Source: a virus. Taken from it: 64,000 nt of DNA. The stretch lies in IMG/VR virus record IMGVR_UViG_3300037088_000232; one strand, given 5' to 3'. Position numbers and translations under genes: made by a program. Shown here one piece after another: positions 1-62,486 of the stretch; the stretch's first letter is position 1, and each line of letters starts with the position of its first letter. The notes below the pieces were generated by a model, which was given only the letters and a program-made list of their open reading frames with translations, was not told the origin of the DNA and searched no databases.

Positions 1-20
1 AATATGAAAAATGCTCTATT

Positions 21-365
21 TTGAATGAATTCATAAAGATTAAAGAATTCGATAGTGAGGAGGAATCATATATTGATGAATATACATGGATCAATGAACA
101 GAGAAATATATGTAATAGACAATTAAAAGATCTTAATGAATTAAAAAATTCAGAGGTTTTCGAAGATAAAAAGAATCTTATATTGAAAATTGAAAAAATA
201 TTGAATGATCTTCAAAAGTACGAAAAAGATTTTTGGGATAATATTCATTCTATTCAAGAAGATATAAAAGAGATGATAAAAATAAAAAATGAATTGAAAG
301 AAATAGATAATCTTATCATATTGAAACAAAAAGAAATTGACGAAATAGAAAAATCTGAAAAATGA
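21..365 (+). CDS. hypothetical K/E-rich coiled-coil-like protein
   Basis: 114-aa ORF; stop overlaps ATG (ATGA) of an unlisted 50-aa ORF at 362-514. Confidence 0.4.
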   Translation: MNEFIKIKEFDSEEESYIDEYTWINEQRNICNRQLKDLNELKNSEVFEDKKNLILKIEKILNDLQKYEKDFWDNIHSIQEDIKEMIKIKNELKEIDNLIILKQKEIDEIEKSEK

Positions 366-512
366 ACCAGAAAGAAGAAATGGATACATTCGAACTTCTT
401 TTACCTGAAATGACAAGGGAAGAACTCGAAGAACGATTAAGAGAATATTATAAGTTGAATCTCGAATTGAGAGAAAGACTTATTGAACTTGAACCAGTAA
501 TACTTCATAAAA

Positions 513-920
513 ATGGATAAAGAATTAGATATAGCGAATTATATTATATTGCTTATAAAAGAAAATAAGTTTTTGTTAAACGAGCAAGATCTGATTTATT
601 CATATAAAATATTCATAGAAACTGAAGAATATGAGAAATGTGGAGTATTGAATGACCTTATAAATTCCAAAAAAATCAATAATGATTTTCCATCTTTTTT
701 TAATACATATTCAACAATTCAAACACAAAAGAATAATATTAAAATAATATTAAAAAAGTTGAATGATTTACCCAAGGATGAAAAGATTAATAATATGATA
801 TTAGAAGCCGAATATGACTTGAAAGAATATGATGATCTTGAAAATGATTTCTGGGTACAAATGAAACTTTTTCCAAAATTATTAAAACAAAAGGTTAAAG
901 ATTTGGATATAAAAGTCTAA
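513..920 (+). CDS. hypothetical protein
   Basis: 135-aa ORF in same frame as the polB fragment but separated by two stops; no polymerase-like motifs. Confidence 0.4.
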   Translation: MDKELDIANYIILLIKENKFLLNEQDLIYSYKIFIETEEYEKCGVLNDLINSKKINNDFPSFFNTYSTIQTQKNNIKIILKKLNDLPKDEKINNMILEAEYDLKEYDDLENDFWVQMKLFPKLLKQKVKDLDIKV

Positions 921-959
921 GTTTTAATTAATAAATTCCAAAAAATAATAACCGAATGA

Positions 960-2393
960 TCTCATGTAGATAGTAGTAAACAAGTAAAATTAAGATATTA
1001 TAAGTGGCCCAATGCCACCAAATATATTACCTGTGATGACGATGACCATCAAAGAGATGGAAAGTATGTTACATGGGATGGGCGATCAGTTAAATCAGTT
1101 CCCACCAAAAATCCAAATCGTTATTCCGTCTATGATTACATAGATGAATTACCTCAGGAAGAACAGGATATTATTTTTCAATATAATGAACCTGATATAT
1201 TTTTCATCGATATTGAAAATGAAATTATAGACAAAAAACCAGCTCCTCATTTAGCTGAAAGTGCCATACAATCCATTTCCATTGTCAATAAAGATAAAGT
1301 TCTGGTAATGGGGACTCAGGAATTATCTGAAGTTATTTCCAAATCCATTGAAGAAGATATAAATAATTATTTCGCCAAATTCGGAACTATTTATCAGTTC
1401 AAATATATTCATTTCAAAAGTGAATATGAAATGTTATTGAATTTCTTTGTGAAATTTGTTCCGAGAATGCCAGTTTTAACTGGTTGGAATTTTACCGAAT
1501 ATGACTGGGTTTTTCTTGTTAATAGAGCTCGTAAACTTGGAATAGATCCGAGTGTAGCTTCAGTAACAAAATTACTGAGAGAACCTTGGGATATGGAAAA
1601 AAAGACATATTGTGAATTACCAGCTCATCGAATGGTTGTTGACTATATGGAACTATTCAAAAAATGGGATACATCCATTAGAGTTAAGGAATCAATTAGT
1701 CTGGACTTCGTATCTGATAATGTTCTTGGAGTTAAGAAAGTTAATTATGAAGGAAGTCTTAAAACCTTATATAATACAGATTATAAGAAATTCGTTTATT
1801 ATAACGCGGTTGACTCCGTACTTGTTCAAAAGATTCATGAAAAGACAAAATTGATCAATATTTTATATGGTATTTCAACTCTTTCGAGAGTAAAAATTGG
1901 GGATTCATACAGTACCTTACCTGTAACAGAGGGAATTTTAAGAAGAAAACTGAAAAAAGAGAAGAATGTTGTTCTTTGTAGATTAGACCGTTCTGAAAAT
2001 GTAGTGGATGTTGAAGGTGTTTTGGGTGGTTATGTTAAAGAACCAGTTAAAGGTATGAGCCATTGGACACCCTGTTATGACTTTAAGAGTTTGTATCCAA
2101 CCTGTATGATAATGTTCAATATCTCTGTCGATAGTTATAAAGGTATCATTTCGAGTGATAAGAAATATGCCATATTCAATAATAAGAAAATTGAAATTGA
2201 ACCAACCGACATTGTTCTATTAAATGGGGCTGTATTCCGTAATGAAATTGGAGTAGTAAATCAGGTTATGAGCCTTATCTATGACGATAGACAGAAATAT
2301 AAAAAATTCATGTTAAAAGATGGGGCTGTTCTGGATGAATTAAAAAGTGAGGAATCTAAATTGATTGCTGAATTGGTTGGGGAATTTGAGTGA
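960..2393 (+). CDS. family-B DNA polymerase (T4 gp43-like) internal fragment: 3'-5' exonuclease domain through motif A; no initiator codon, no motif B/C
   Basis: Exo I FIDIENE (1203-1220), Exo II LTGWNFTEYDWVFLVNRARKLG, Exo III YYNAVDSVLVQKI, motif A DFKSLYPTCMIMFNISV, pre-motif-B DDRQKYKK then stop; frame open from 960 but first ATG is 1308, after exo I. Confidence 0.85.
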   Translation, partial: SHVDSSKQVKLRYYKWPNATKYITCDDDDHQRDGKYVTWDGRSVKSVPTKNPNRYSVYDYIDELPQEEQDIIFQYNEPDIFFIDIENEIIDKKPAPHLAESAIQSISIVNKDKVLVMGTQELSEVISKSIEEDINNYFAKFGTIYQFKYIHFKSEYEMLLNFFVKFVPRMPVLTGWNFTEYDWVFLVNRARKLGIDPSVASVTKLLREPWDMEKKTYCELPAHRMVVDYMELFKKWDTSIRVKESISLDFVSDNVLGVKKVNYEGSLKTLYNTDYKKFVYYNAVDSVLVQKIHEKTKLINILYGISTLSRVKIGDSYSTLPVTEGILRRKLKKEKNVVLCRLDRSENVVDVEGVLGGYVKEPVKGMSHWTPCYDFKSLYPTCMIMFNISVDSYKGIISSDKKYAIFNNKKIEIEPTDIVLLNGAVFRNEIGVVNQVMSLIYDDRQKYKKFMLKDGAVLDELKSEESKLIAELVGEFE

Positions 2394-2617
2394 CCAGTTT
2401 ATAGTCTTTCAACATATTATCGAAAGAATGTATTATACCAGTAGTCATACTTATCACCAGCTTAGATTGTTTTTCTCTTAACCACACAAAAATATTGAAT
2501 GTTTGTTTTACTTCAACGGTACAACAAGCATTCATAACCTTTTCTACAAAATCATCAGATGGACAACATTCTGGTGTTTTTTGAAAAAGGTTTTTTAAAA
2601 AATCATCATTTAGATCT

Positions 2618-2893
2618 TTATTTTTCATCATCAAAGGTTGCTTCTTTTGGGGTTGTTGGTCTTAAAGAATATATATTAATCGAATCAAGAGAATCCTCAT
2701 CAAAGGTGGCTTCCAATGGTACTATTGGCTTCAATATATCAATGTTGATTTCTTTTGTTATAGTAGTGGTAATAATTACTTCTGATTTTGTTGATTTGTC
2801 TCCATCAGCTAATGTTATACTTCCAATAAACATTAACATCAAAAATACTATAATTTTTTTCATAATCTCTTTTTTGTTTTGTCCATTTGACAT
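2618..2893 (-). CDS. small secreted protein (N-terminal signal peptide)
   Basis: MKKIIVFLMLMFIGSITLADG hydrophobic leader; 91 aa. Confidence 0.45.
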   Translation of the reverse strand: MSNGQNKKEIMKKIIVFLMLMFIGSITLADGDKSTKSEVIITTTITKEINIDILKPIVPLEATFDEDSLDSINIYSLRPTTPKEATFDDEK

Positions 2894-2948
2894 CAGATAT
2901 TCAAAAAGGTTACAAAAATTTTTAATATATAAAGAAAAAATCTTTCTT

Positions 2949-4268
2949 ATGTTGTATTCATTCTCAGAATTTTTGAATGAAAGATATGGTCAATTCAATG
3001 ATTCGATAAAATTTACTGATTGGTCAGAATTTAAGGAAAAGTTAAAAAATTCCATAAAAACTGGTTTTAATACTGAAGAAGAACTCGTTAATTTGATGGG
3101 AATGGACTTTAATAAATATACTCAAATCAGAGAGAATATGATTCTTAATTGGAAGGATTCAGTTAGTAAATCTTTATTACATACTGTCGCTCAGATAGGA
3201 CAAAAAATTCCAAAGGAGGGAGCTAGCATTTTTAAAGATCTCAGACAACAAACAGCTATGTTAATTGTTGCCTCTGGTGGATTAGAAAGTAGAAATGTGT
3301 TTGGTGATGTGAATTCTACAAATGGACTTAGATTTTTAAATAGATTTACGGATCTTGAAAAAATTAAAAATACAAACCCTAAAAGTACTAAATATGATTT
3401 TGATCTCCACAAGGATGTCGTGAAAAGATGGGTTGATTTTGATGGTATTCCAGCCTATACGATAACAAATAATTTATCAATTAAGAAAGTTAATAACATA
3501 GTTCAATATGTTTGGTTATATTCCTTCTATCACCATTATAAAATAAAAAAAGATAAACCGAAACTTCCAAAGAATTTATATAGGGGAATAAGGGTATTCC
3601 AAGGATTAAAAGGTAAAGAAATTGAACAATTAAGAAAAGTATCACAAGAACAAGCTAAAGGGATTGATGATAAACATACTACTTGGGTCAAAACTTTCAT
3701 TGATAATTTGATTCAATTTATCGTTGAGAAAGGAATGTCAAAAATATCGGATGGAAAATTCTTATCTTTTACCGAATCAAGGGATATAGCTGCTTATTTC
3801 GCAAATAAAGAGGGTATTATTTTGAGAGTTGATCCGACTAAGGTAAAAATAGTCACTTCACCAAAGACAGAAGAATTTTTTGGAGAAGTAGATTATGTTT
3901 CTGGTAAAAAAGAAAAAGAATATATCATAGAAATTCCAGTAAATTACAAATTTACCATAGATGATATAGAAATTGTGGATGGCGATTATTGGATCGGAGC
4001 AAATAGTCCATTATCGGTTCAATTCTTCGATCATGATGATAAAAAGGCCAACTATGAATTAGATGGAATAAGAATAGAATCTCAGTATGTTTGGAGAAGT
4101 AATACAAGTGGTGGAATCGTATTTAATAATTTAGATTCGAAAGGATATGAAAGTTGGGGAATATCGAGGCGTGAATTTAAGAAGAAATTCAATGTAGATC
4201 CTATGCCAACCGAAGAAAATTTAAATAGAATAAAAGATTTTAAGATATCTAATACTAAAAGATGGTAA
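2949..4268 (+). CDS. CTS-tagged ADP-ribosyltransferase, R-S-E type (T4 Alt-like)
   Basis: Start chosen at internal ATG giving N-terminus MLYSFSEFLNE (T4 CTS-like). Upstream part of listed ORF 2559-4268 is antisense of two minus-strand ORFs. Motifs LYRGIRV (Arg), FLSFTES (S-x-S), EKEYIIEIP (E-x-E + hydrophobics) with Alt-like spacing. Confidence 0.55.
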   Translation: MLYSFSEFLNERYGQFNDSIKFTDWSEFKEKLKNSIKTGFNTEEELVNLMGMDFNKYTQIRENMILNWKDSVSKSLLHTVAQIGQKIPKEGASIFKDLRQQTAMLIVASGGLESRNVFGDVNSTNGLRFLNRFTDLEKIKNTNPKSTKYDFDLHKDVVKRWVDFDGIPAYTITNNLSIKKVNNIVQYVWLYSFYHHYKIKKDKPKLPKNLYRGIRVFQGLKGKEIEQLRKVSQEQAKGIDDKHTTWVKTFIDNLIQFIVEKGMSKISDGKFLSFTESRDIAAYFANKEGIILRVDPTKVKIVTSPKTEEFFGEVDYVSGKKEKEYIIEIPVNYKFTIDDIEIVDGDYWIGANSPLSVQFFDHDDKKANYELDGIRIESQYVWRSNTSGGIVFNNLDSKGYESWGISRREFKKKFNVDPMPTEENLNRIKDFKISNTKRW

Positions 4269-4618
4269 ATTCTATGAAATATCTAAAAATGTTTGAAGAA
4301 TATAAAAATTTAAATCCTAATTTTTATAAATGGTTTGATGAAAGTAAAGTCGTAGATGAAAATAATCATCCATTAATTGCTTATCACGGAACAGGTGAAT
4401 ATTATAAATCAACTATTGATAAAATATTTGATTGTAGTAAAGGGTGTTGGTTTACTGAATCATTAAAGGTTGCTAAAGTTTTTACACACAATAAATTAAA
4501 TCCGAAAATTTTAAAAGTTTATTTGAAAATAGAAAATCCAAAGATTTATGAAACTTGGTTTGATTATATGAATGATGTTAAGGAATGGAAGAGTGAGATA
4601 ATTAATATAAAGAATTAG
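4262..4618 (+). CDS. small ART-fold-like protein (H-G-T / WFTES motifs), possibly truncated
   Basis: IAYHGTGEYY ... CWFTESLKVA; 118 aa; stop/start overlap with upstream gene. Confidence 0.35.
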   Translation: MVNSMKYLKMFEEYKNLNPNFYKWFDESKVVDENNHPLIAYHGTGEYYKSTIDKIFDCSKGCWFTESLKVAKVFTHNKLNPKILKVYLKIENPKIYETWFDYMNDVKEWKSEIINIKN

Positions 4619-4703
4619 AAAAGATTTTATTATGTTTTACCCGAATTATATTAAGAATATTAAAAATGATGGAAGTTGGGATATAGATGATTCTAATATT
4701 TAT

Positions 4704-5438
4704 TCATAACAAATGATAATAATCCATATTATAAAATTCTTCATCATTTTCAATTCCTATGAAATTTCTTCCTGTATTCTTAGCTGCTATACAGGTTGTT
4801 CCAATACCACAAGTGTTATCCAGTACTAATTCTCCGGGATTCGTAAAGGTCAATATTAACCATTCACACAATTTTACTGGTTTTTGGGTTCTATGTACAG
4901 GTGGCCAAGGTTTTTCGAAGTTTAAAACACTTTTCGGATATTTTTGTGTAGTTCCTTTTCTTATATCTGGAATTTTCGAATCAAAATAACCATAATTTTG
5001 ATTTTTTCCTTCTTTGAAAGAAAAAGCGTTACCTTTTGAATGCTGAGGTGTCCCCTCTGTAAATTGTGGATGGTAAGTTGGTTGTTTTTTATAGAAAATC
5101 AAAATTTGCTCATGGTTTCTAAGTATTTGTTTTTTTGCATTTAAAAATCCAGTGACCCTTTCTCCTTTTTTCCATATCAAATCATAACGATACATTTTCT
5201 CATTAGATAAAGCAAGTTTGTGAGCGAACATTCCCTGAGCGAATAAAGCAATACATCCATTCGGTTTTATAATTCGATTGTAGTTCTTCCAGAGTAATTC
5301 AAATGGGATCATAATATCTTTCTTGTTTCTTGTGACTCCGTATGGTAAATCAGCAAGAATCATATCAACAATATGAGTATCAATATCAGGCATTAGATGT
5401 AAACAATTATCGAAATATATTTTATTTATATCAATCAT
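4704..5438 (-). CDS. DNA N6-adenine/N4-cytosine methyltransferase, beta class
   Basis: Motif IV DLPYG precedes motif I DNTCGIGTT (FxGxG) near C-terminus; 244 aa. Confidence 0.8.
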   Translation of the reverse strand: MIDINKIYFDNCLHLMPDIDTHIVDMILADLPYGVTRNKKDIMIPFELLWKNYNRIIKPNGCIALFAQGMFAHKLALSNEKMYRYDLIWKKGERVTGFLNAKKQILRNHEQILIFYKKQPTYHPQFTEGTPQHSKGNAFSFKEGKNQNYGYFDSKIPDIRKGTTQKYPKSVLNFEKPWPPVHRTQKPVKLCEWLILTFTNPGELVLDNTCGIGTTCIAAKNTGRNFIGIENDEEFYNMDYYHLL

Positions 5439-5829
5439 TTAACAACGATTTTAATTTTTGAGATCTAATGAAATTTTGTATTTTTTCTGATATTTCATGA
5501 CCCGAATAACAATGAGATACGAATCCATCTGGTCTATTCATAAAGTCAGTTGTAATTATATAACAAGAATTATACATTTCAGTACCAGCTGCACTTTTTG
5601 TTCCAATTCCGATTATTGTTTCCCCGAATTTTGGTTTTCTATAATTAAATTTCCATGAATCCCAATTCATTTCTTCACAATATTTTTTATTTTCTTGAGA
5701 TAAAAATTCCAAAATTCCATCAATATCTTTTTCATTGGTTTCAAATAAATTACACCAAATATGATTTTTAATATCTGGTTCAACCGATTTCCCAATCAAA
5801 AATTTATCTAAAAAATTCATATCAATCAT
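5431..5829 (-). CDS. member of tandem paralog family (C-terminal KL..IL.D motif)
   Basis: N-term MIDMNFLDKFLIGKSVE, C-term SQKLKSLLND; overlaps neighbours by 8 nt. Confidence 0.5.
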   Translation of the reverse strand: MIDMNFLDKFLIGKSVEPDIKNHIWCNLFETNEKDIDGILEFLSQENKKYCEEMNWDSWKFNYRKPKFGETIIGIGTKSAAGTEMYNSCYIITTDFMNRPDGFVSHCYSGHEISEKIQNFIRSQKLKSLLND

Positions 5830-6193
5830 TTAATATTTTTTCTAATTTTTTGTATCTAATATGATTTTGTAGTTTTGCAACTAAATCAATTCCACGAAAA
5901 ACACGAGTTGCTAATCCACTAACATTAATATTTTCCAGATTAAACTCAGTTGTAAATAATTCACAAGAATGTTCGTGCCATAGTCTAATTCCTAAAATCG
6001 TTTCTCCGAATAGTGGTTTATAAGGTGGTGGGATATAGTCAAAATCCATTTCACGAGAATATCTTTGATTCTCTTCATTTAAAAATTCTAAGGTTTCATC
6101 ATCAATCTCAATAATATCATTTCTAATATTATTAACATCCTGAATCATAGATTCAGATTTTCCGATCAAAAATTTATCCAGGAAATCCATCAT
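5822..6193 (-). CDS. member of tandem paralog family
   Basis: N-term MMDFLDKFLIGKSE, C-term RYKKLEKILND; paralog of 5431-5829. Confidence 0.5.
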   Translation of the reverse strand: MMDFLDKFLIGKSESMIQDVNNIRNDIIEIDDETLEFLNEENQRYSREMDFDYIPPPYKPLFGETILGIRLWHEHSCELFTTEFNLENINVSGLATRVFRGIDLVAKLQNHIRYKKLEKILND

Positions 6194-7525: not shown

Positions 7526-8410
7526 TTATATATTAAATATTTTCTTGAATGGTTTTAAATTTCCATCTGGATTGTGTTCTTTATATGAGTTATGATCATC
7601 ATAGATAGCGAATACTATCTTATGAAAAACCCCTTTATATTCAGTATCTAATAATTCTTTAAAGATTGAAGCTATCTGTTCGGGTGGATTTCCATAAGCA
7701 CCACAACCAAAAGCGGAAAGAACTAAATCTCTATGTCCATTCTCATGAGCGAATTGAAAAATCCTTCTTATTTTTTGTTTGGTTTTGGAGAAGTCATTTT
7801 CATTCATTCTTCTATTCTTCAATTCTGGTCTTTTTATTGCAGGTACAGATATAAAAGCACATTTGAATGGATGGGAGAGTAAATAATATCCATTTTTTTC
7901 AGAACCACGAAAAACGGTTATATCTTTTGAATAGATTGCACCATAATCACCCAATGGATATTTGTATTTAGAATTTTGTTCTATTCCATACTGATGAGCA
8001 TAATCAACATATTGATAAAGAGATTTAAATAAATTGGTTCTTCTGAATAAATTTTCTTCCTGTGCCGATGAACCATTTATTACACCACCACCGGGATTCT
8101 TATAACTGGCCATATTTAAAACTATCGGATTTTCCATCGTTCTTGCTACATCCAAACAATCAGCATCCATGACCAATATTTCAGTTTTAAAGTCATTTAT
8201 CCCCGTTGGGTCATAAATTGGGCCATTTTCAGTAAATAAAGAGTTCTGGCACACTTTCGAGTTGTCAATGATAACTTCTCCATCCGAGAAGTATTTTCCA
8301 TTCTTAACGATTTTAATCGTGTTTTCCCAAACATCAATCAAAAGTTCTTTTCTTCTGTTAAGATTTGAAGTTTTATAGGTTTGTGCCCATTTTATTGCAT
8401 CCCATTCCAT
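7526..8410 (-). CDS. bacterial-type poly(ADP-ribose) glycohydrolase (macrodomain, DUF2263/TIGR02452 family)
   Basis: PARG signature NPGGGVINGSSAQEENLFRR (GGG-x6-8-QEE) and LVLSAFGCGAYGNPPEQIA. Confidence 0.75.
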   Translation of the reverse strand: MEWDAIKWAQTYKTSNLNRRKELLIDVWENTIKIVKNGKYFSDGEVIIDNSKVCQNSLFTENGPIYDPTGINDFKTEILVMDADCLDVARTMENPIVLNMASYKNPGGGVINGSSAQEENLFRRTNLFKSLYQYVDYAHQYGIEQNSKYKYPLGDYGAIYSKDITVFRGSEKNGYYLLSHPFKCAFISVPAIKRPELKNRRMNENDFSKTKQKIRRIFQFAHENGHRDLVLSAFGCGAYGNPPEQIASIFKELLDTEYKGVFHKIVFAIYDDHNSYKEHNPDGNLKPFKKIFNI

Positions 8411-47323: not shown

Positions 47324-48541
47324 TTACAAAATGATATTATCCCATTGAGACGGATCAGTCTTTTTTGTTTTTTTCTTAGTAATATCTTCCAAATAAATCA
47401 TATCAAATCTATCTCTTGAAAAATAATTTTCCAGATTCAAATCAAAATAAATATTTGGATTATTCAGTAAAATAACTAATTGATTCATATCTTTTATGTT
47501 ATTGAGGGTATTGAGATAAACATAATCCCCCTTAGCTAAATCATCAATAAGTTTTCGCCACAGAAAGACGGATTTTCCCTGTTCTAACATTTTCTTAGCT
47601 TTTCGTAATCCCGGTTCATCATTATCAAAAACAAATCGAAGTTCCAGATTGTCATTCTGAATAAGATCTATATTTGTATCCAATCCAATTAACGATATAG
47701 AATTAGGAAAAAAAACACTATCCAAATAACCCTCGAAGGCGTTTATTGGTTGATTAAAATCAACATTCAATATATTGAATAAATGGGATAGTTTATTATA
47801 TGATATTGATTCCAGTTCATCCAAGGAATCAGTCGTGTTCTTATAGTTATACAAATATTCAAACTCATATTCCTTATAAATTCTTTTAGTTTTATCGTCT
47901 TTCAAATTTCTTAATTGAAAACCAAGTAACTTGTTTCCTCTTCGGTTTAATATAATAATGACAGACTCAGCCCATCGATTAGTAATGTGGTAGATTCCTT
48001 GAAGAATATTACTATAATTCTGAATTTTTCTTTTTTTCAAATAATCAAAAGCAAATGAACCTTTTTTTATTGGTGATATATTAGTAAGAAAACACCCCTT
48101 ACGAGAATTTAAAAAATCCATGTATTCTTTAGCATCTAATAATCTGTCTAAGTTTTCAACAGCGAAATCTTCTTTCGAAGTAAAGGAAATATTTTGACTT
48201 ATGTAATCATAAATTTGAAGTTTTTTTTCTGGATCTAATTTAATACCAAAATGATCACACCATTTAGTAAAAAACATACTACACGATTGTTCATTATAGC
48301 ACTTCACATACATATTTTTTAAATATAAATGTGAACGCTTGGCATTCATTTTATCATGACTATCTCCACATACTGCACAGGCCATTGAAATTTCCTTGGG
48401 CGTTTGTTCATTGGGTCTTATTTTTAACATTTTTTTTTGAGAATTAGAATGAACTTTATCTAAGACACTTTGAACAATATTTACAATGTAGTTAATGTCT
48501 AATTCTTTTTTATTGGTGTTTTCAAATAATTCATCAGCCAT
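47324..48541 (-). CDS. DNA primase, T4 gp61-like (zinc ribbon + TOPRIM)
   Basis: ISMACAVCGDSHDKMNAKRSHLY..VKCYNEQSC (compare T4 RCPVCGDSKTDQNKARGWYY..HCYNCNY); TOPRIM AFEGYLD and RFVFDNDEPGLRKAKKMLEQGKSVFLWR. Confidence 0.8.
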   Translation of the reverse strand: MADELFENTNKKELDINYIVNIVQSVLDKVHSNSQKKMLKIRPNEQTPKEISMACAVCGDSHDKMNAKRSHLYLKNMYVKCYNEQSCSMFFTKWCDHFGIKLDPEKKLQIYDYISQNISFTSKEDFAVENLDRLLDAKEYMDFLNSRKGCFLTNISPIKKGSFAFDYLKKRKIQNYSNILQGIYHITNRWAESVIIILNRRGNKLLGFQLRNLKDDKTKRIYKEYEFEYLYNYKNTTDSLDELESISYNKLSHLFNILNVDFNQPINAFEGYLDSVFFPNSISLIGLDTNIDLIQNDNLELRFVFDNDEPGLRKAKKMLEQGKSVFLWRKLIDDLAKGDYVYLNTLNNIKDMNQLVILLNNPNIYFDLNLENYFSRDRFDMIYLEDITKKKTKKTDPSQWDNIIL

Positions 48542-49593
48542 TGTAATCTTTCTTCTATATTTTCTTTATAATTTATTCTCAATAAGAATATACCATTTTT
48601 TTCACAAAATGTTGTTTTTATTTGGTCAGTTATCTTTGTTATTTCAAATCTATCTTTCCCACCGAAATGATCTATTGGTGTAAAATGTTGTTCCCCATCA
48701 TATTCAATACAAATATTATAGTCAAATAGGAAAAAATCAAATTTTAAATATTTTTGAAATATACATTTATTAAATTTTTTCTGTATTTCAAATTTAATAT
48801 CATTATCTGACAAAAATTTATTTATAGTTTTTTCACCGTTACTCAATTTACATTTTGGACATCCACGGCCTTGTATGTGATTATTTGGTACTTGCTTAAA
48901 ATCACCATGTTTAAGGCATATTATAATTACCTTCTCGTTTGCTCTAATATAATTTACTTTTGAATAATCATAAAGATTACCGTGAATATCTTTTGATTTT
49001 TTGATAAAATCATCAGTTGTTACAATATTACAAAATGGACATCCAGAACCACTTAAATGATGTTTGGGATCTTGTAAAAATTCTCCGTGTTTCGGACAAA
49101 TTATTTTTACCTTTTTTTTGTTATTGATAAAAATCGTTTGAGAATAATCATAAAAATTATTATGTACTTTTTTAGCAATTTCTATATATTGTTCGGTGGT
49201 TTTTCTACCCATTTTACTACAAAACGGACATCCATGACCTTTCATATGATGTTCTGGTATTTGTTTAAATTCTCCATGTTCTTTGCATAATATATTTACC
49301 TTTGTATCCAAATTGATATAATTCACTTTTGAATAATCATAAATATCTCCATGAACTTTAATGGATCTTTCAATAAATTCTTCGATTGTTAGTTTTTTAT
49401 TATTTGAACATTTAGAACATCCACGACCTTCTATATGTCCTGATGATAATTGTTCGAACTCTCCATGTTTCTTACAAATTATTTTAACTTTAGAATAACT
49501 ATTTTTATAAACAGTTTTAGAATAATCATATTTATCACCGTGAGCCAATTTACATCTTTCAATAAATTCTTCTTGGGTTAAACTTTTTCCCAT
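48499..49593 (-). CDS. homing-endonuclease-like protein: 4-5 tandem Zn-finger-like repeats + C-terminal Vsr/DUF559-type nuclease motif
   Basis: Repeats YDYSKV.Y.....KV.IIC.KHGEF.Q.P..H..G.GCP.C; C-terminal FDFFLFDYNICIEYDGEQHF; 43-nt overlap with primase 5' end. Confidence 0.5.
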   Translation of the reverse strand: MGKSLTQEEFIERCKLAHGDKYDYSKTVYKNSYSKVKIICKKHGEFEQLSSGHIEGRGCSKCSNNKKLTIEEFIERSIKVHGDIYDYSKVNYINLDTKVNILCKEHGEFKQIPEHHMKGHGCPFCSKMGRKTTEQYIEIAKKVHNNFYDYSQTIFINNKKKVKIICPKHGEFLQDPKHHLSGSGCPFCNIVTTDDFIKKSKDIHGNLYDYSKVNYIRANEKVIIICLKHGDFKQVPNNHIQGRGCPKCKLSNGEKTINKFLSDNDIKFEIQKKFNKCIFQKYLKFDFFLFDYNICIEYDGEQHFTPIDHFGGKDRFEITKITDQIKTTFCEKNGIFLLRINYKENIEERLQWLMNYLKTPIKKN

Positions 49594-51455: not shown

Positions 51456-51779
51456 ATGGATATATTAGAAGATATACTCGATGAAAACAAAAAAGATAAA
51501 GAATTAAAGCACGGTTTGGATTTTAAATCCAAGTTCAAAGTCATAGACACAAGGCAGGGATTTCATGTAAATTTCAATTATTTATTTAAAAGAGGATTAA
51601 CCCCAGAGGAAATTATATTCCTTGAAACTGTCTTTTTCAAAAATACTATTAATGTTAGTGATGTATCTGGTCTGGAATTGAGTGATTTCAACATGAATCG
51701 TCAATATACCGCTGTATTTACATTGTATTATTATGATGATGATACTTTTGATTTCTTCTTGCACCATACGGTGAAATAA
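51456..51779 (+). CDS. hypothetical protein
   Basis: 107-aa ORF. Confidence 0.35.
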   Translation: MDILEDILDENKKDKELKHGLDFKSKFKVIDTRQGFHVNFNYLFKRGLTPEEIIFLETVFFKNTINVSDVSGLELSDFNMNRQYTAVFTLYYYDDDTFDFFLHHTVK

Positions 51780-51794
51780 AATAATAATTAGATA

Positions 51795-52247
51795 ATGCTA
51801 AATAATGTCTTAGAAAATTGGGATAAAAAATTTTTAGATCTCGCCTCTTTTATAAAAAAATGGAGTAAGGATAAATCGACACAGACATCGGCTGTCATTA
51901 TAGATCCTGAGAGTAATGCAATTCTGTCAATCGGATATAATGGATTTCCTCGTGGTGTTGATGATTCAATTAACGAAAGATACGAAAGATCGGTAAAATA
52001 TAAGTACACCGAACACGCTGAAAGGAACTCTATTTATAATGCGGCTCGTAATGGAATAAAACTACGAGGTTCTGTTATGTATATTGAATGGTATCCTTGT
52101 TGCGATTGTGCAAGAGCAATTATTCAATCTGGTGTTTCAACTATCTTTTGTAGTAAGCCTAATTTCGAAGATGAAAGATGGGGTGAAGATTTCAAAATAA
52201 CTCAGGTTCTTTTTGAAGAAAGTGGAGTTCAAGTAAATTATATTTGA
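51795..52247 (+). CDS. dCMP deaminase (cytidine/deoxycytidylate deaminase fold)
   Basis: Zinc motifs YTEHAERN and PCCDCARAI (H-A-E / PC-x-x-C). Confidence 0.75.
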   Translation: MLNNVLENWDKKFLDLASFIKKWSKDKSTQTSAVIIDPESNAILSIGYNGFPRGVDDSINERYERSVKYKYTEHAERNSIYNAARNGIKLRGSVMYIEWYPCCDCARAIIQSGVSTIFCSKPNFEDERWGEDFKITQVLFEESGVQVNYI

Positions 52248-52302
52248 CAGGTTGAAAATTGATTTTTTTATTTTAATATATAAAAAGAAAAACCAATTAG
52301 TC

Positions 52303-52887
52303 ATGAACAAGTTCATTATGAATTTTGATTCCTTCATTAAAGAAAATAAAAAAACAACTATAGCCGAATTACCAGAAGAAGTGACCAAAAGTGCAAAGAC
52401 CATAGTAGATGGTAATTTTGATCATGCTTTAAAGAAAACTTTTGATGGTGATATGATAAGATTTAAAGTTAATCCCGAAGATTTTAATTATGTTGATCCT
52501 CAACAACATCTTGAACTGGAATTGGGAGAAGGTCCATCAAAGAAAAGAAAATTCGATGTTACTCTAATATTTGTTCAGGCAATTGAAGCTACCGAAAGAG
52601 AAAAAGAAAAAAGTAAAGATTCATCAGGTCATTCTAAAGTCGGTGGAGAACTTATTTACAAAATAGAATTTAAACCAAAGGAATTATCTGATGATGAAAA
52701 TACAGAACATGAACAGGAAGAAGAAGATGATGTTTGGAATAAACCAGATCCAGATGATGAAGATTTAATTCCAGAAGAACCAGAAGAAGAGGGAAAACCC
52801 GTATCATCTGGTAGAAAGAAAGTTCATATTGAAGATTTAAATACTTTTTTCCAAACGAGTGATGGTGACGATGATTCTGAACTTTGA
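52303..52887 (+). CDS. CTS-tagged, highly acidic protein (D/E-rich C-terminal half)
   Basis: MNKFIMNFDSFIKEN; EHEQEEEDDVWNKPDPDDEDLIPEEPEEEG. Confidence 0.45.
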   Translation: MNKFIMNFDSFIKENKKTTIAELPEEVTKSAKTIVDGNFDHALKKTFDGDMIRFKVNPEDFNYVDPQQHLELELGEGPSKKRKFDVTLIFVQAIEATEREKEKSKDSSGHSKVGGELIYKIEFKPKELSDDENTEHEQEEEDDVWNKPDPDDEDLIPEEPEEEGKPVSSGRKKVHIEDLNTFFQTSDGDDDSEL

Positions 52888-53284
52888 TGATTATTTAAGT
52901 ATAAATGAGAATTCTGAGAAGATAATCGTTGGTTATCATGTAGCTCCATCGAAATTAGATTCCAAAATTTTAAAAGAGGGTATTAAAAAGATACCAAAAG
53001 AAAGATATTCCAGACTTGGTAAAAAAGAAATGTCACCAATAAGAAATTATTTTTGGTTGGATTTGAAATATGCTGAATGGTTTAAAGAATTCAATGAAGA
53101 AGATGGATATAATCCACAAGAGATGACAATATGGAAAGTCGATTTATCAGGTTATGATTTAATTAAGGATGAAGAAGCAAGTGATATGAGTGAATGGAGT
53201 TCTCAATTTTCAAAAGGTGAAGATGGTAAAGCTGTTTATGTAGAAAGAAACATACCACCAGATAGAATTATAGATGAAGTTTAA
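52859..53284 (+). CDS. CTS-like small protein, ART-fold-like (H variant) weak
   Basis: MILNFDDYLSINE; IVGYHVAP ... QEMTIWKV. Confidence 0.3.
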   Translation: MMVTMILNFDDYLSINENSEKIIVGYHVAPSKLDSKILKEGIKKIPKERYSRLGKKEMSPIRNYFWLDLKYAEWFKEFNEEDGYNPQEMTIWKVDLSGYDLIKDEEASDMSEWSSQFSKGEDGKAVYVERNIPPDRIIDEV

Positions 53285-53288
53285 TTGA

Positions 53289-55268
53289 TTATTTAAGTTT
53301 TGAAAAACGACCCAGAGTGGTTTGTTTCTTTCCCTGATATTCCTCATGTCTCTTAATTTCAGCTGTAGCTGATACCACATCACCTACTAAAATATCATTA
53401 ATAATGAGATTCCCCTGTTCGTCTTTTTGTCTACCTTGTTCAGTAGGTTTTACAATGAACTGAGAACCAATAGTACCAAACTTAGTATAAATATTTCCTA
53501 TCTGGTCTTTTAATTTATATACATTTGACCAATTCCATTCTGTTTGGTATCCACTGATATGAACCACTTCAAGATTTTCAAGTCTTGATTTTTCTCCAAC
53601 TGTACCAACATATTCTGATTCTTTCTTACCACCAGAGAGAGCTTCTTCAGCTTCTCTTCTTTTCCTATCTTCCTGAGAGAGTTTACCGAAGTACCAAGAA
53701 CAAGCACCTGTAATGTAATACAGGAGATGTTTCTGAACGGCACCGGCCTTAATCATGTTACTGGCGTTAAAGATGAAGTTATTATCACGATTGGCGTGAA
53801 TGAAATCAATAACCCATTGTAATTCTTCATCGGATGTGGTTTCTAATCTCTCATTGTATATTGTGACAAAATCAGACCATCTATTAAAATCTTCTTGATA
53901 TTCTGATGAACTTTTACCATGATAATTTCTTCTGTCAGGGGGGTTATGAGCGTAATCAACATCATCTTGTACTCTACCTGATGTTGATTTAACTTCTTTT
54001 TTATTATAATATTCTTCTTTTGGATGATCAGGGTCAGCGAGATAATCTTGGTCTCTTTTTTGATTAATCTTCTCAGCTGTTGCTTTGGACATATATCCAT
54101 TCTTTTTGTAGAACCAATAGAAATACTTGATTACCTCATTAGTTGAGATCTCCACATCAAATTTTGGACCCCAACCACCACTAAATCCTTCATCCCAATC
54201 ATCACCACCACCATCGAAATCACCGTAACTTTCATCAAGGAATGAAATATCGGTTAAATAGGATAATACCTTTTCATAATCATATCCCAAATAGTTACGA
54301 ATACATGAACCCCCAACCCTGAGGATCTCACCTGTCTTTATTTTCTGAACAAAAACAGTCTTGTTTCTGTATATGGTTCTTTTACAATGATCACAATATG
54401 AATGACCTATCATCTGGTCAGGAACTAAACTAATTGGAACTTGTTGACCCGGAGCATTTTTCAAAAGTCCGTCTTTGTGATCAATAGTACCCAAAATTAA
54501 CCATTCATCCTCAGGTTTAAGGACGGTAGCCATTTTCAGGTCATATACTTCAACTTCTTTGGATACTACTCTCCAAGGTTCAAACAATTTATTATCTTCA
54601 TCATCATTCCAAACTTCCATTCCCAATTTTGACTTTTTTTGTTTTTCAATAGAATCTTTATTGAGAAAATTACATCTATCGGTGGCTTCGTTTATATCTG
54701 TATAAACAATCACCACCCTATCTGTTTCTTCTGGTTTTTCTTTCTTTGAAACGGTTTTCCTGTCGTATGATAATCCTCTTTCACTTGGATGACAACAGGC
54801 GAAATATTTTTTCTTTTCAATAAGAGTAAGTGTGGGTTCGGGGACTTTAATAAACTTGGATACTTTCGCTATTCTTCTGAATATTTTTTCAAATGTTTTT
54901 TTCTTATCGTCACTACTTTTGTGTGTATCACTACCAACAGGAATCTCAATCCTCTTTGTTTCTACGGTATAGAATAATTTTATATCTTTACCCTGATTGT
55001 CATCAACTGGATTTTCAGAATCAAGAATTTCTTGAGTAGAAAAGGTCACGAATGCATTAGTCTTTTCGCTTACACATCCCCAATGGTCAGGAATTCCTTT
55101 ACTCTTTACAACCCACCATCCATTCTGATGATAGAATCGAGTACCTATTCCGACTTCTTGATTTTGGGCTTCTTCTTTGAGAAATGTAGGGTAATCACTC
55201 ACGATTCTATCTGACTTTTCCATGTTGGTAGGGATTTGAACTACAAAAATACTATATTTCTCTAACAT
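53289..55268 (-). CDS. large hypothetical protein
   Basis: 659 aa, G/D-rich segment GGGDDWDEGFSGGWGPKFD; no recognised motifs. Confidence 0.45.
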   Translation of the reverse strand: MLEKYSIFVVQIPTNMEKSDRIVSDYPTFLKEEAQNQEVGIGTRFYHQNGWWVVKSKGIPDHWGCVSEKTNAFVTFSTQEILDSENPVDDNQGKDIKLFYTVETKRIEIPVGSDTHKSSDDKKKTFEKIFRRIAKVSKFIKVPEPTLTLIEKKKYFACCHPSERGLSYDRKTVSKKEKPEETDRVVIVYTDINEATDRCNFLNKDSIEKQKKSKLGMEVWNDDEDNKLFEPWRVVSKEVEVYDLKMATVLKPEDEWLILGTIDHKDGLLKNAPGQQVPISLVPDQMIGHSYCDHCKRTIYRNKTVFVQKIKTGEILRVGGSCIRNYLGYDYEKVLSYLTDISFLDESYGDFDGGGDDWDEGFSGGWGPKFDVEISTNEVIKYFYWFYKKNGYMSKATAEKINQKRDQDYLADPDHPKEEYYNKKEVKSTSGRVQDDVDYAHNPPDRRNYHGKSSSEYQEDFNRWSDFVTIYNERLETTSDEELQWVIDFIHANRDNNFIFNASNMIKAGAVQKHLLYYITGACSWYFGKLSQEDRKRREAEEALSGGKKESEYVGTVGEKSRLENLEVVHISGYQTEWNWSNVYKLKDQIGNIYTKFGTIGSQFIVKPTEQGRQKDEQGNLIINDILVGDVVSATAEIKRHEEYQGKKQTTLGRFSKLK

Positions 55269-55275
55269 AAAAAAA

Positions 55276-55812
55276 TTATTTGGCTTTATTTTTTACCAAA
55301 GAAACTAAATTTTCCAAAGAATCAGATATATCACTTTTCTCACCGTCAGTAGTTTTTTTCCAATCAACTTCACGAATAGTTTTTGTTATATTTCTGATTT
55401 GTTCTCTTATGAATTGGAGTTTCCTATATGTCTGAGTATCAGATTCATTTAATAAATTCTCTTTCATTTCTGGTAATTTATCTGGTAAATCGTATTGAAT
55501 AATAAGAATTTTACGTTTTTCATCAGCAAGATCTGATTTTATTTCATATGAATAATCCCAATCTACTATTAACATGAGTGCATTCTTTTCAGTAATTGGA
55601 ATCAAATTACTTTTTTTATATGGTTTAACAGAATAACCTTTAAGAAGTGCGGCATATTCACCACTACAATAATCTAATGGAATACTAATTTCTTGTTTTG
55701 TTTTATTATTGAAAATGATATAAAAAGCTTTGCATTTGGATATTTCCAACAATTTGTCAACATCTTTAACAAGATCTAATTTTTCATTAAATTTTTTGAA
55801 TCTTATAATCAT
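55276..55812 (-). CDS. hypothetical protein (weak CTS-like N-term MIIRFKKFNE)
   Basis: 178 aa. Confidence 0.4.
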   Translation of the reverse strand: MIIRFKKFNEKLDLVKDVDKLLEISKCKAFYIIFNNKTKQEISIPLDYCSGEYAALLKGYSVKPYKKSNLIPITEKNALMLIVDWDYSYEIKSDLADEKRKILIIQYDLPDKLPEMKENLLNESDTQTYRKLQFIREQIRNITKTIREVDWKKTTDGEKSDISDSLENLVSLVKNKAK

Positions 55813-56552
55813 ACATATTTCAATTTATTTAAACCGTAATAGTAATCAACAACTCTTGCTTTGATTACACCCATTGTTTGAGCATTCCAAGATGTAGTTG
55901 CATGTGGTCTTTCCAATAAGGCTGTTAACCATATTATATCACCTCTTTTAACAGATTTTACTTTTAATTCGGTAGAAAAAACAGGTCCACCACTAACAGA
56001 TTCAAGTTTCTTAATCTTTTCTGGATCAGTTATGATTCCAGTGACTTGTAAAATTTTTACTGGTTCTTTAACTTTTTCAATTTCACCATCTTCGAGTTCT
56101 TGAAATACCATGATATCATCGGATAAGGGATCAAATTCCTTGGTCTTGTCGAATTTCTTTATTTTATCCTCTTTAAAATCAGCAAATTTTGTTGTTATAT
56201 TATTATCTTTATCTTCTTCTACCGCTTTATCAAGAGCTAATAAATTTTTATATACTTTTCTTCTCATTCTCTTTTTCTTTTCTTCTTCTATTGGTGTTTC
56301 TTTCTTTTTTCTCCTTCTTCTTTGATTAAAATAATCACTCTTAACATCCTTTATTTCTTCTGTTCCTAATACCTTTTTATCTCCGTTCCAATCACCGATA
56401 CTACTAATACTGGTAATACTTCCACTACTATATTTACCACTTGCTATAATAGGTTGTTGACGGTCATCCGCGTGTATACCCCCACTACCACAACCAACAA
56501 CATCACGATAATCTTCATTTATAAATTCATTGTATGTCAGGATATTCTTCAT
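55809..56552 (-). CDS. CTS-tagged hypothetical protein
   Basis: MKNILTYNEFINE; 247 aa; K/E-rich middle. Confidence 0.45.
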   Translation of the reverse strand: MKNILTYNEFINEDYRDVVGCGSGGIHADDRQQPIIASGKYSSGSITSISSIGDWNGDKKVLGTEEIKDVKSDYFNQRRRRKKKETPIEEEKKKRMRRKVYKNLLALDKAVEEDKDNNITTKFADFKEDKIKKFDKTKEFDPLSDDIMVFQELEDGEIEKVKEPVKILQVTGIITDPEKIKKLESVSGGPVFSTELKVKSVKRGDIIWLTALLERPHATTSWNAQTMGVIKARVVDYYYGLNKLKYV

Positions 56553-57017
56553 TTATTTCCTTATCTTATTTATTTCTTCAACTTTCATTACCTTCTCACC
56601 AACACCAGAATCGATACAACTTTGAATTTCACTTTGTAATTGTTTTATATTGGAGAAACCTTTTACACTTGATGGTAAAGATTTCTTCATCATCATATTA
56701 CTCAAAGCATTACCCATACCAGAACTTTGCCATCCAGAGAAAAATGAATATCCAATTGAATCATCTGACCTCTGATTAACAGCCAAAGTGTGTTTATTAT
56801 GATAAATATCTTCTGTTCTAAATTTAAGCAAAAGTATACTTTCTTTAGTTTTAGAATCTAATTTTTCAATGGCAGCGTCTTTCATGAAATCTAAAACTTC
56901 ATCTGGAATGGTACTATTGTTTTTTCTTATCCAAATATATGCATCCATAATTTCTTTTCTGAAAGAATCAACTGGAGTTGCATTTTCATTCAATTCAAAT
57001 TCTTTAATGTGTTTCAT
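56553..57017 (-). CDS. CTS-like hypothetical protein
   Basis: MKHIKEFELNEN; 154 aa. Confidence 0.4.
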   Translation of the reverse strand: MKHIKEFELNENATPVDSFRKEIMDAYIWIRKNNSTIPDEVLDFMKDAAIEKLDSKTKESILLLKFRTEDIYHNKHTLAVNQRSDDSIGYSFFSGWQSSGMGNALSNMMMKKSLPSSVKGFSNIKQLQSEIQSCIDSGVGEKVMKVEEINKIRK

Positions 57018-57033
57018 ATATTGATTTTATTTT

Positions 57034-58911: not shown

Positions 58912-58922
58912 GAATGTATATA

Positions 58923-59387: not shown

Positions 59388-59398
59388 TGAAAGTTGTA

Positions 59399-60955: not shown

Positions 60956-61125
60956 TTTCTATATATAAAAATAAAAAGATAAAATGAACAACGATCAGAT
61001 TAAATCAAAAATAATGAAAAGAGTTTTGGAATTAACAGAGGAATTAAAAAATCATATTCATTCAGTGAATATCGAATTCAGTCCAGACGATAAGAAAATA
61101 ATTGTGGATTTTAATATATAAATCT

Positions 61126-62455: not shown

Positions 62456-62486
62456 AATATATTATATCAAAAAATAAGAAAAATGT

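What the first reader, a model, noticed from the sequence alone, without database searches (positions are those of the whole stretch)
960..2393. gp43-like DNA polymerase present only as an internal fragment: no initiator codon before exo I and no motif B/C half
The frame is open from 960 and encodes exo I (FIDIENE) at 1203-1220, but the first ATG/GTG/TTG in frame is at 1308, after exo I; two stops at 918 and 957 lie just upstream. The ORF stops right after pre-motif-B (DDRQKYKK), before KxxxNSxYG and YGDTDS. No ORF anywhere in the 64 kb encodes motifs B/C; the following + ORF is an ART, not polymerase. Candidate explanations are a split gene 43 (as in some Aeromonas T4-likes) with an unusually distant 43B, intron/intein-type interruption, non-canonical initiation, or a decaying pseudogene copy.
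Basis: seen in the sequence. Interest (0 to 1): 0.65.

Follow-up and report, generated by a model that had tools for sequence, protein, structure and literature searches.

The report
Split phage DNA polymerase, start deleted
This is the front half of a DNA polymerase that huge bacteriophages normally encode as two separate genes far apart in the genome, and its missing start is a 42-base deletion found only in this one assembly, so it is not a new way of making the protein.

Summary
Window 960-2393 is an open frame encoding family B polymerase motifs exo I-III, motif A and pre-motif B. It has no ATG/GTG/TTG before 1308, and nothing in the 64 kb encodes motifs B or C.

There are two separate causes.

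(1) The C-terminal "truncation" is a natural, conserved gene split at the fingertip of the fingers domain. Of the 120 best homologues, 119 are 479-509 aa and stop at the same place. The partner half of this same phage is P0310 (563 aa, with KIVLNATYGAF and YQDTDS). It occurs in the same samples and on a contig of the same length (736,551 bp). It is absent from a 597-kb contig that carries the front half, so it lies at least 126 kb away. Complete relatives (462-735 kb huge phages) keep the halves 13-281 kb apart, mostly on opposite strands.

(2) The missing start is private to this contig. At least 14 contigs of the same phage, in nine sequencing runs or assemblies, carry 42 extra bases holding a TTG start and 13 codons. 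A second private 62-base deletion 3.65 kb downstream frameshifts an ADP-ribosyltransferase (ART) gene. The remaining 59 kb is 100% identical to other assemblies.

No intron, intein or recoding is involved. The split is of a known kind with an unusually long separation, and the lost start is probably an assembly artefact or a defective variant.

The parts
960..2393 (+). Remnant of the N-terminal ('A', 43A-like) half of a split family B DNA polymerase: codons 15-491 of the intact 491-aa gene, plus the stop codon
   Evidence: It is 100% identical to P0001 residues 15-491. Pfam PF03104 and PF00136 match, and PHROG 2062 matches positions 90-495 of its 502. P0001 residues 158-467 (window ORF residues 144-453) align to RB69 gp43 residues 183-491. 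An AlphaFold model of P0001 has RB69 gp43 as its best structural match (E=1e-21).
958..959 (+). Junction of a 42-nt deletion private to this contig. It removes the TTG start and 13 further codons (MLVDYEYRNNTLIV). The alignment places the gap here, but its exact position is ambiguous by 2 nt ('AT').
   Evidence: Alignment A1 compares the window with L001-L004, and a 12.3-kb comparison with L001 confirms it. The blastn breakpoint at 943-960 in L013 is consistent with the same gap, and L013 encodes residues 1-491. Missing sequence: ATTGTTAGTAGATTACGAATACAGAAATAATACACTTATTGT.
1203..1223 (+). Exo I motif (FIDIENE)
1482..1508 (+). Exo II motif (GWNFTEYDW)
   Evidence: aligned to RB69 GWNVESFD
1797..1820 (+). 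Exo III motif (YYNAVDSV)
   Evidence: aligned to RB69 SYNIIDVY
2073..2102 (+). Polymerase motif A (CYDFKSLYPT), which supplies the first catalytic aspartate
   Evidence: aligned to RB69 SFDLTSLYPS
2283..2306 (+). Pre-motif B (DDRQKYKK) in the first fingers helix
   Evidence: aligned to RB69 residues 480-487, NQRKEHKG
2307..2390 (+). C-terminal 28-residue helical tail that ends the A half at the fingertip
   Evidence: The AlphaFold model has one long helix over P0001 residues 447-490. All homologues end here.
4612..4613 (+). Junction of a second private deletion (62 nt). It frameshifts the ART-PolyVal gene from 165 aa to 118 aa (ORF 4262-4618). It is not part of the polymerase, but it belongs to the same cluster of private differences.
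   Evidence: the intact protein matches Pfam PF18760

Best explanation
The ORF is the N-terminal subunit of a two-subunit, T4 gp43-type replicative DNA polymerase of a huge (at least 736 kb) Mahaphage-type bacteriophage.

How the gene is organised:
- In this lineage the polymerase gene is permanently split at the tip of the fingers domain.
- The A half (491 aa) carries the N-terminal domain, the 3'-5' exonuclease, motif A and the first fingers helix.
- The B half is a separate gene (P0310, 563 aa). It carries a short TPR-like helical hairpin, the second fingers helix with motif B, motif C with the second catalytic aspartates, the KKxY motif and the thumb.
- In this phage the B gene lies at least 126 kb from the A gene.

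How it most likely works (inferred by analogy with split gp43 of Aeromonas phage 25 and with split Pfu polymerase): the two proteins are translated independently and assemble non-covalently into one enzyme. The active site is built from both chains, and the two long fingers helices pack antiparallel.

Why there is no start codon here: this assembly has lost 42 bp. The lost bases hold the TTG start and the first 14 codons, which form strand 1 and part of strand 2 of the N-terminal domain. A second, 62-bp deletion and one SNP lie within the same 4.6 kb. Everything else in the window is identical to other assemblies. I therefore read the lost start as most likely an assembly or sequence artefact, or otherwise a rare defective variant. 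It is not an expression mechanism.
For: SHOWN - the split is conserved.
- 929 homologues were found. Of the best 120, 119 are 479-509 aa and all end about 25-30 residues after RxxYKK.
- PHROG 2062 is a 502-position A-half family.

SHOWN - the split maps to the fingertip.
- The A half aligns to RB69 gp43 up to residue 491 and ends 24 aa later.
- B-half profile positions 44-128 align to RB69 residues 524-607, which include motif B. Positions 241-278 align to RB69 615-654, which include motif C.

SHOWN - the partner half of this phage exists.
- P0310 is on a contig of 736,551 bp, the same length as the longest contig carrying P0001.
- P0310 occurs in the same samples as the window's phage: ERZ28656406 (scaffold_11, against scaffold_9 for the window region), JGI 3300036884 (Ga0334813_000600, against Ga0334813_000005), and SRR23247747, which also yields a contig 100% identical to window 51649-64000.
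- The A half sits at about 469.9-471.4 kb of the 597,284-bp JGI contig, and P0310 is not recorded on that contig (its look-up gives Ga0334813_000600 instead).

SHOWN - relatives are arranged the same way (genomes stated to be circular in PMC7162821).
- LR756501 (735 kb): 115 kb apart, opposite strands.
- LR756502: 132 kb apart, opposite strands.
- LR756504: 281 kb apart, opposite strands.
- LR745206: 101 kb apart, opposite strands.
- LR756500: 13 kb apart, same strand.
- Each genome has one A match. Each has one B match, except LR756500, which has two.
- Cultured Chryseobacterium phage MA9V-1 has A and B separated by two genes.

SHOWN - the deletion is private.
- The window differs from L001 by the 42-nt and 62-nt gaps and one SNP in 12.3 kb.
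- Window 4613-64000 is 100% identical to other assemblies.
- The 361-aa truncated gene call exists on one contig (73,203 bp). The intact 491-aa call exists on 9 + 5 contigs.
- The deleted residues fall in high-confidence strands (pLDDT 91-93) and are conserved in the family (M1, D4, E6 and L12 at 90% or more).

FROM THE LITERATURE: split 43A/43B of phage 25 co-purify and are active (PMC2988022). Natural fingertip splits occur in T4-like phages, and a fully active engineered fingertip split exists in Pfu polymerase (PMC3061061).
Against: - No experiment or multimer model shows that these A and B halves associate.
- The B-half model is poor (mean pLDDT 55).
- The exact distance and relative orientation of A and B in this phage are unknown. 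I could not read the 736-kb contig, and its identity for both halves rests on equal contig length.
- Whether the 42-bp and 62-bp deletions are artefacts or real cannot be decided without reads. Both have only 2-3 nt of microhomology and no hairpin, which fits either origin.
- The two scans of the JGI contig collection returned nothing even for a control pattern, so they say nothing about how many samples carry the deletion.
Confidence: 0.85

Rival explanations
1. The 42-bp and 62-bp deletions are real. The contig would then represent a defective sub-population of the phage, or an early stage of gene decay, that has lost expression of the polymerase A half and truncated an ART gene. It would be propagated by complementation from intact genomes.
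For: The truncated 361-aa gene call is on record in JGI/IMG on a 73,203-bp contig, so the deletion is in a public assembly and was not introduced into the window. Both deletions have 2-3 nt of microhomology, as expected for template switching in vivo. The three private differences cluster within 4.6 kb.
Against: It is one contig against at least 14 intact ones. The other 59 kb of the window shows zero divergence. A genome without a translatable polymerase subunit should not dominate a sample. The same signature is produced by chimeric reads or amplification artefacts.
Confidence: 0.2
2. The gene is interrupted by an intron, an intein or a trans-splicing element, and the pieces are joined at the RNA or protein level.
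For: Relatives do carry an intein, often a split one, inside motif C of the B half. Huge phages of the gut often have intron-split genes (PMC12880540).
Against: No Rfam family, including group I and II introns, reaches significance in window 1-6000. Neither P0001 nor P0310 has an intein domain. The A tail is a 28-residue helix that lacks the catalytic residues of an intein. The halves are at least 126 kb apart, and on opposite strands in four complete relatives. The 42 nt missing here are coding sequence conserved across the family.
Confidence: 0.02
3. The window copy is translated as it stands, by non-canonical initiation or stop-codon recoding.
For: In-frame ATT and ATA codons exist from position 1026 onwards. 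Some relatives (Lak phages) use alternative genetic codes (PMC12880540).
Against: Reading through TGA 957 gives no start codon before TAA 918. Gene calls across about 80 kb of this phage are dense under the standard code. Every other assembly has a plain TTG start. The product would also lack conserved strand 1.
Confidence: 0.03
4. It is a redundant pseudogene fragment, and a complete polymerase B gene lies elsewhere in the genome.
For: The rest of the 736-kb genome could not be read.
Against: The ORF has no internal stop or frameshift, and its protein is identical across many samples. Each complete relative has exactly one A match, and one B match (two in LR756500), with no full-length gene. 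The separately encoded B half lacks exo motifs and motif A, so it needs the A half.
Confidence: 0.03

Closest known systems
Split gene 43 (43A/43B) of T4-like Aeromonas and Acinetobacter phages 25, 44RR, 31, 65 and 133 (Petrov et al. 2006, as described in PMC2988022 and PMC3061061)
   Same: It is the same polymerase family (RB69/T4 gp43-like). The split is at the same structural place, the fingertip between the two long fingers helices. There are two independently translated ORFs. Motif A is on the first chain and motifs B and C are on the second.
   Different: In those phages the two ORFs are 2 bp to 3 kb apart on one strand. Here the partner is at least 126 kb away, and it is 13-281 kb away, mostly on the opposite strand, in complete relatives. 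The B half here has an extra N-terminal extension of about 40-60 residues that is TPR-like and helical. Sequence identity to RB69 gp43 is only about 20% (Foldseek alignments).
Split polymerase B of jumbo phages of Bacteroidota and relatives: Chryseobacterium phages MA9V-1 and MA9V-2, Tenacibaculum phage pT24, Sphingomonas phage PAU. PHROG 2062 is a 502-position DNA polymerase family of A-half length; its members were not checked.
   Same: The A and B halves are homologous (about 28% identity), with the same break point and the same A-half length, about 495 aa.
   Different: The halves are 1.6-5 kb apart on the same strand in those phages.
Unannotated huge-phage genomes LR756501-LR756504, LR745206 and LR756500 (Mahaphage clade, Al-Shayeb et al. 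2020, PMC7162821)
   Same: These are the closest complete genomes. The A half of LR756501 is 67% identical. They show the same far-separated two-gene arrangement.
   Different: They are different species. The records carry no annotation, and the main text of the paper does not mention the polymerase.
Methanothermobacter thermautotrophicus split polymerase B (as described in PMC3061061)
   Same: It is a family B polymerase encoded by two distant genes (85 kb apart) that assemble into one enzyme.
   Different: It is archaeal. The split is in the palm domain, about 83 residues C-terminal to the fingertip position.

Membership tests
Family B DNA polymerase, T4/RB69 gp43 type | Exonuclease motifs exo I (DxE), exo II (NxxxF/YD) and exo III (YxxxD) | tested here: met
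   FIDIENE at 1203-1223, GWNFTEYDW at 1482-1508 and YYNAVDSV at 1797-1820, aligned to the RB69 motifs. Pfam PF03104 scores 37.4 bits against a cut-off of 23.
Family B DNA polymerase, T4/RB69 gp43 type | Polymerase motif A (DxxSLYPS) | tested here: met
   YDFKSLYPT at 2073-2102.
Family B DNA polymerase, T4/RB69 gp43 type | Motifs B (KxxxNSxYG) and C (YGDTDS) on the same polypeptide | tested here: not met
   They are absent from the ORF and from the whole window. They are present on the separate protein P0310 (KIVLNATYGAF and YQDTDS).
Family B DNA polymerase, T4/RB69 gp43 type | Fold like RB69 gp43 | tested here: met
   The A-half model has mean pLDDT 72, above 90 in the N-terminal and exonuclease domains. 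Its top 50 PDB matches are all RB69 gp43, with E down to 1e-21 and TM-score (query-normalised) of 0.57.
Fingertip-split gp43 (43A/43B) | Two separate ORFs, each with its own start and stop | tested here: met
   In intact assemblies the A half has a TTG start and a TGA stop. The B half is a 563-aa ORF with an ATG start. In this window the A-half start is deleted.
Fingertip-split gp43 (43A/43B) | The break lies in the fingers domain between the two long helices | tested here: met
   The A half ends at about RB69 residue 515, and B homology starts at about RB69 residue 524.
Fingertip-split gp43 (43A/43B) | Halves adjacent (2 bp to 3 kb apart) and co-oriented | tested here: not met
   The B half is missing from the 64-kb window, and its look-up places it on other contigs than the 597-kb contig and the 230-kb scaffold that carry this region, so it is at least 126 kb away.
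Fingertip-split gp43 (43A/43B) | Halves associate and reconstitute polymerase activity | not testable with these tools
   This is known only for phage 25 and for engineered Pfu polymerase (PMC2988022, PMC3061061).
Intein-mediated (trans-)splicing of a split polymerase | Intein splicing blocks flanking the break | tested here: not met
   Pfam finds no PF14890 or other intein domain in the A or B half of this phage. Inteins in relatives sit in motif C of the B half, not at the A/B break.
Intron-interrupted gene (group I or II) | A ribozyme next to the exon ends, with exons collinear on one strand | tested here: not met
   An Rfam E-value scan of window 1-6000 gives only a chance snoRNA match at E=0.87. 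The halves lie on opposite strands in four complete relatives.
Pseudogene | Internal stops or frameshifts, and loss of conservation | tested here: not met
   There is no internal defect in 960-2393. The protein is 100% identical to P0001, and the family has 929 homologues. Only the start is lost, and only in this contig.

The most novel reading that the evidence does not exclude
Huge phages of the Mahaphage clade replicate with an obligate two-chain family B polymerase. Its genes have been dispersed 100-280 kb apart on opposite strands, and the B chain has gained a TPR-like N-terminal hairpin that serves as a docking module. This would allow the exonuclease-bearing and catalytic chains to be regulated or exchanged separately. 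This architecture has not, to my knowledge, been described for these phages. In addition, the deleted contig could be a real polymerase-defective genome that persists by complementation.
Probability: 0.3. Interest if true: 0.5.

Novelty: new variant of a known kind. Interest (0 to 1): 0.33.

Why it matters
For annotation: a roughly 490-aa "polymerase fragment" in huge-phage contigs should not be called a pseudogene or taken as a sign of introns. The partner gene may lie more than 100 kb away, and completeness checks that expect one polymerase B gene will miscount.

For biology: the replicase gene can stay split and dispersed across a large, widespread phage clade. This is a natural test of how modular the family B polymerase is.

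For this window: the apparent loss of the initiator is a data-quality issue that should be flagged, not interpreted.

Tried and rejected
- I searched the window in all six frames for the missing N-terminal peptide (MLVDYEYRNNTLIV) and found nothing. This ruled out an upstream exon inside the window.
This failed because the table gives the contig data of the cluster representative only.
- I followed three wrong candidates, P0150, P0146 and P0142. All came from other sample series, so they belong to other phages.
- The B half was finally found through an IMG/VR locus (L053) and an exact-sequence look-up.
- Two scans of the JGI metagenome contigs, one for the deletion junction and one for a shared control pattern, both returned nothing. 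That collection does not hold this phage, so the result is uninformative.
- Exact look-ups of the truncated 361-aa and 118-aa products in the gene-position index found nothing, although the 361-aa protein is in the protein collection.
- DNA folding around both deletions showed no hairpin that bridges the end points.
- phmmer of P0310 against PDB sequences found nothing. A profile was needed.
- The B-half structure model was too poor (pLDDT 55) to use for a fold search.
- Literature searches found no paper that describes the dispersed split in Mahaphages.

Full report
**What is in the window.**
- Translation of 900-2393 shows stops at 918-920 (TAA, also the stop of the upstream 135-aa gene) and 957-959 (TGA).
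- An open frame of 477 codons then runs from 960 to the TGA at 2391-2393.
- The first ATG/GTG/TTG in that frame is ATG 1308.
- The frame encodes exo I (1203-1223), exo II (1482-1508), exo III (1797-1820), motif A (2073-2102) and pre-motif B (2283-2306), followed by a 28-residue tail.
- Pfam PF03104 and PF00136 match above their cut-offs. PHROG 2062 'DNA polymerase' matches at E=1.8e-68 over positions 90-495 of its 502 positions. The profile of that family itself ends where this ORF ends.
- tblastn of a full-length cyanophage gp43 and of the two halves of a split Chryseobacterium phage polymerase finds only 960-2336 in the whole 64 kb. No motif B or C region is present.

**Why the start is missing.**
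- A protein search returned P0001, which is 100% identical but 491 aa long. It begins MLVDYEYRNNTLIV and then continues SHVDSS..., which is where the window's frame opens.
- That peptide is not encoded anywhere in the window.
- Four Logan contigs from different sequencing runs carry P0001. Aligned to the window they are identical around the start, except that the window lacks 42 nt, ATTGTTAGTAGATTACGAATACAGAAATAATACACTTATTGT, between positions 958 and 959.
- An IMG/VR contig (L013) also encodes residues 1-491. Its blastn match to the window breaks at 943-960, consistent with the same gap.
- In those contigs the gene starts at a TTG 40 nt after the stop of the upstream gene.
- Over 12.3 kb the window differs from L001 in only three places: one SNP at 157, this 42-nt gap, and a 62-nt gap at 4612/4613.
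- The 62-nt gap frameshifts an ART-PolyVal gene, shortening it from 165 aa to 118 aa.
- From 4613 to 64000 the window is 100% identical, with no indels, to contigs from Logan, JGI and ENA assemblies.
- The truncated 361-aa gene call (P0241) is recorded on a single JGI/IMG contig of 73,203 bp, presumably the source of the window. The intact 491-aa protein is recorded on 9 contigs (Logan and ENA) plus 5 contigs (JGI).
- The 14 lost residues are conserved in the family (M1, D4, E6 and L12 in at least 90% of 32 sequences). In an AlphaFold model they form strand 1 and part of strand 2 of the N-terminal domain, with pLDDT 91-93.
- Both deletions have 2-3 nt of microhomology and no bridging hairpin.
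- Conclusion: the missing initiator is a private defect of this one assembly. I judge an assembly or library artefact more likely than a real defective variant. Only reads can settle this.

**Why the second half is missing.**
- All but one of the 120 best homologues of the ORF are 479-509 aa and stop at the same point. The exception is a 359-aa partial.
- P0001 residues 158-467 align to RB69 gp43 residues 183-491, and the protein ends 24 residues later.
- A profile of the separately encoded C-terminal halves aligns from RB69 residue 524 onwards. It covers motif B at RB69 524-607 and motif C at RB69 615-654.
- The break is therefore at the tip of the fingers domain, between its two long helices.
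- This is the position of the natural 43A/43B split in Aeromonas and Acinetobacter T4-like phages. Those halves co-purify and are active. An engineered split of Pfu polymerase at the same place keeps full activity (PMC2988022, PMC3061061).
- Motif A lies on the first chain and motifs B and C lie on the second, so neither chain can polymerise alone. This last point is an inference.

**Where the partner is.**

The window's closest published relatives are the unannotated circular huge-phage genomes of Al-Shayeb et al. 2020 (PMC7162821). The A half of LR756501, the 735,411-bp genome, is 67% identical. Positions of the two halves in those genomes:

| Genome | A half | B half | Separation |
|---|---|---|---|
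| LR756501 | 90194-91693 (-) | 709481-710917 (+) | 115 kb around the circle |
| LR756502 | 253853 (+) | 120501 (-) | 132 kb |
| LR756504 | 255869 (+) | 537995 (-) | 281 kb |
| LR745206 | 232803 (+) | 130583 (-) | 101 kb |
| LR756500 | 262515 (-) | 248786 (-) | 13 kb |

- Each genome has one A match, and one B match (two in LR756500), with no full-length gene.
- Cultured Chryseobacterium phage MA9V-1 has the halves 2.2 kb apart, with two genes between them.
- For the window's own phage, I took the B half from IMG/VR locus L053: 563 aa, with KIVLNATYGAF, YQDTDS and FFEKKHY.
- An exact look-up gives it as P0310, on a contig of 736,551 bp. That is the same length as the longest contig carrying P0001.
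- Its other contigs come from the same samples as the window's phage:
  - ERZ28656406, on scaffold_11; the window region is on scaffold_9.
  - JGI 3300036884, on Ga0334813_000600; the window region is on Ga0334813_000005.
  - Run SRR23247747, which also yields a contig 100% identical to window 51649-64000.
- On the 597,284-bp JGI contig the A half maps to about 469.9-471.4 kb. P0310 is not recorded on that contig, so the partner is at least 126 kb away. Its orientation is unknown.

**Alternatives tested.**
- An Rfam scan of window 1-6000 at E up to 1 gives only a chance snoRNA match, so there is no group I or II intron.
- The two small minus-strand ORFs after the polymerase ORF (2356-2634 and 2618-2893) have no Pfam or PHROG match, so no homing-endonuclease domain is detected.
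- Neither half has an intein domain.
- Reading through TGA 957 yields no start codon before TAA 918. Gene calls across about 80 kb of this phage are dense under the standard genetic code.

**Structure.**
- The A-half model has mean pLDDT 72. It is confident in the N-terminal and exonuclease domains, weak in the incomplete palm, and ends in one long helix over residues 447-490.
- Its best PDB matches are all RB69 gp43.
- The B-half model is poor overall (pLDDT 55). It shows a confident N-terminal helical hairpin (residues 4-40) followed by a long helix (45-95).
- The hairpin gives weak TPR matches (Pfam E=6e-4; designed TPR proteins at E about 1e-4).
- A role for this hairpin in docking the A tail is speculation.

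**Comparison and verdict.**
- The split belongs to a known kind, the fingertip-split gp43. It fails one descriptive feature of the described cases, adjacency of the two genes. In that respect it resembles the 85-kb separation in Methanothermobacter, whose split lies elsewhere in the protein.
- I found no paper that describes the dispersed arrangement in Mahaphages.
- The split is a new variant of a known kind and of modest interest.
- The "no initiator" half of the finding is a contig-specific deletion and should be scored low.

Noticed in passing
window 4612-4613 (ORF 4262-4618): A second deletion private to this contig (62 nt, flanked by 'AAT' microhomology) frameshifts an ART-PolyVal gene. 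The gene is 165 aa in other assemblies (L001 13357-13854) and 118 aa here.
   Followed up: yes
window 157: A single private SNP: T here, A in L001, L002 and L013. Together with the two deletions, all differences from other assemblies fall in the first 4.6 kb. Positions 4613-64000 are 100% identical to other assemblies.
   Followed up: partly
L073 694-3963 (IMGVR_UViG_3300025858_000010); also L074-L088, and proteins P0169, P0157 and P0233: In many relatives the C-terminal polymerase half is itself broken inside an intein that sits in motif C (DTD|S...VHN|S). The arrangement is a B1 piece plus N-intein (364 aa), then a free-standing 359-aa zinc-finger ORF (DUF4379/DUF723), then a C-intein plus B2 piece (362 aa). 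This is the 'fractured gene' split-intein arrangement of Dassa et al. 2009 (PMC2677866), and it puts the polymerase in three pieces. In P0146, P0154, L085 and L092 the intein is contiguous. The window's own phage (P0310) has no intein.
   Followed up: partly
window 48499-49593 (-): A free-standing 364-aa protein has repeated treble-clef zinc-finger motifs (Pfam DUF4379, E=5e-15; DUF723 on record). It belongs to the same family as the ORF that sits between the split-intein halves in relatives. It may be a homing-endonuclease-like mobile gene.
   Followed up: partly
whole window; L001 1968-3797: The window belongs to a phage assembled elsewhere as a 736,551-bp contig, as large as the largest published phage genome (735,411 bp, LR756501). 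That published genome is its relative (67% identity in the polymerase A half). A gp23-type major capsid gene lies about 5-7 kb upstream of the window start.
   Followed up: partly
window 4262-4618, 7526-8410, about 57000-61000; L136, L039: Pfam hits on record for the gene calls of matching contigs (L001, L039, L136) show many ART-PolyVal ADP-ribosyltransferase paralogues and a PARG-like poly(ADP-ribose) glycohydrolase gene. This suggests an expanded set of ADP-ribosylation genes.
   Followed up: no
P0310 residues 16-43 (not in the window): The B half of the polymerase starts with a weakly TPR-like helical hairpin that T4 and RB69 gp43 lack. It could be a docking element for the helical tail of the A half.
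   Followed up: partly
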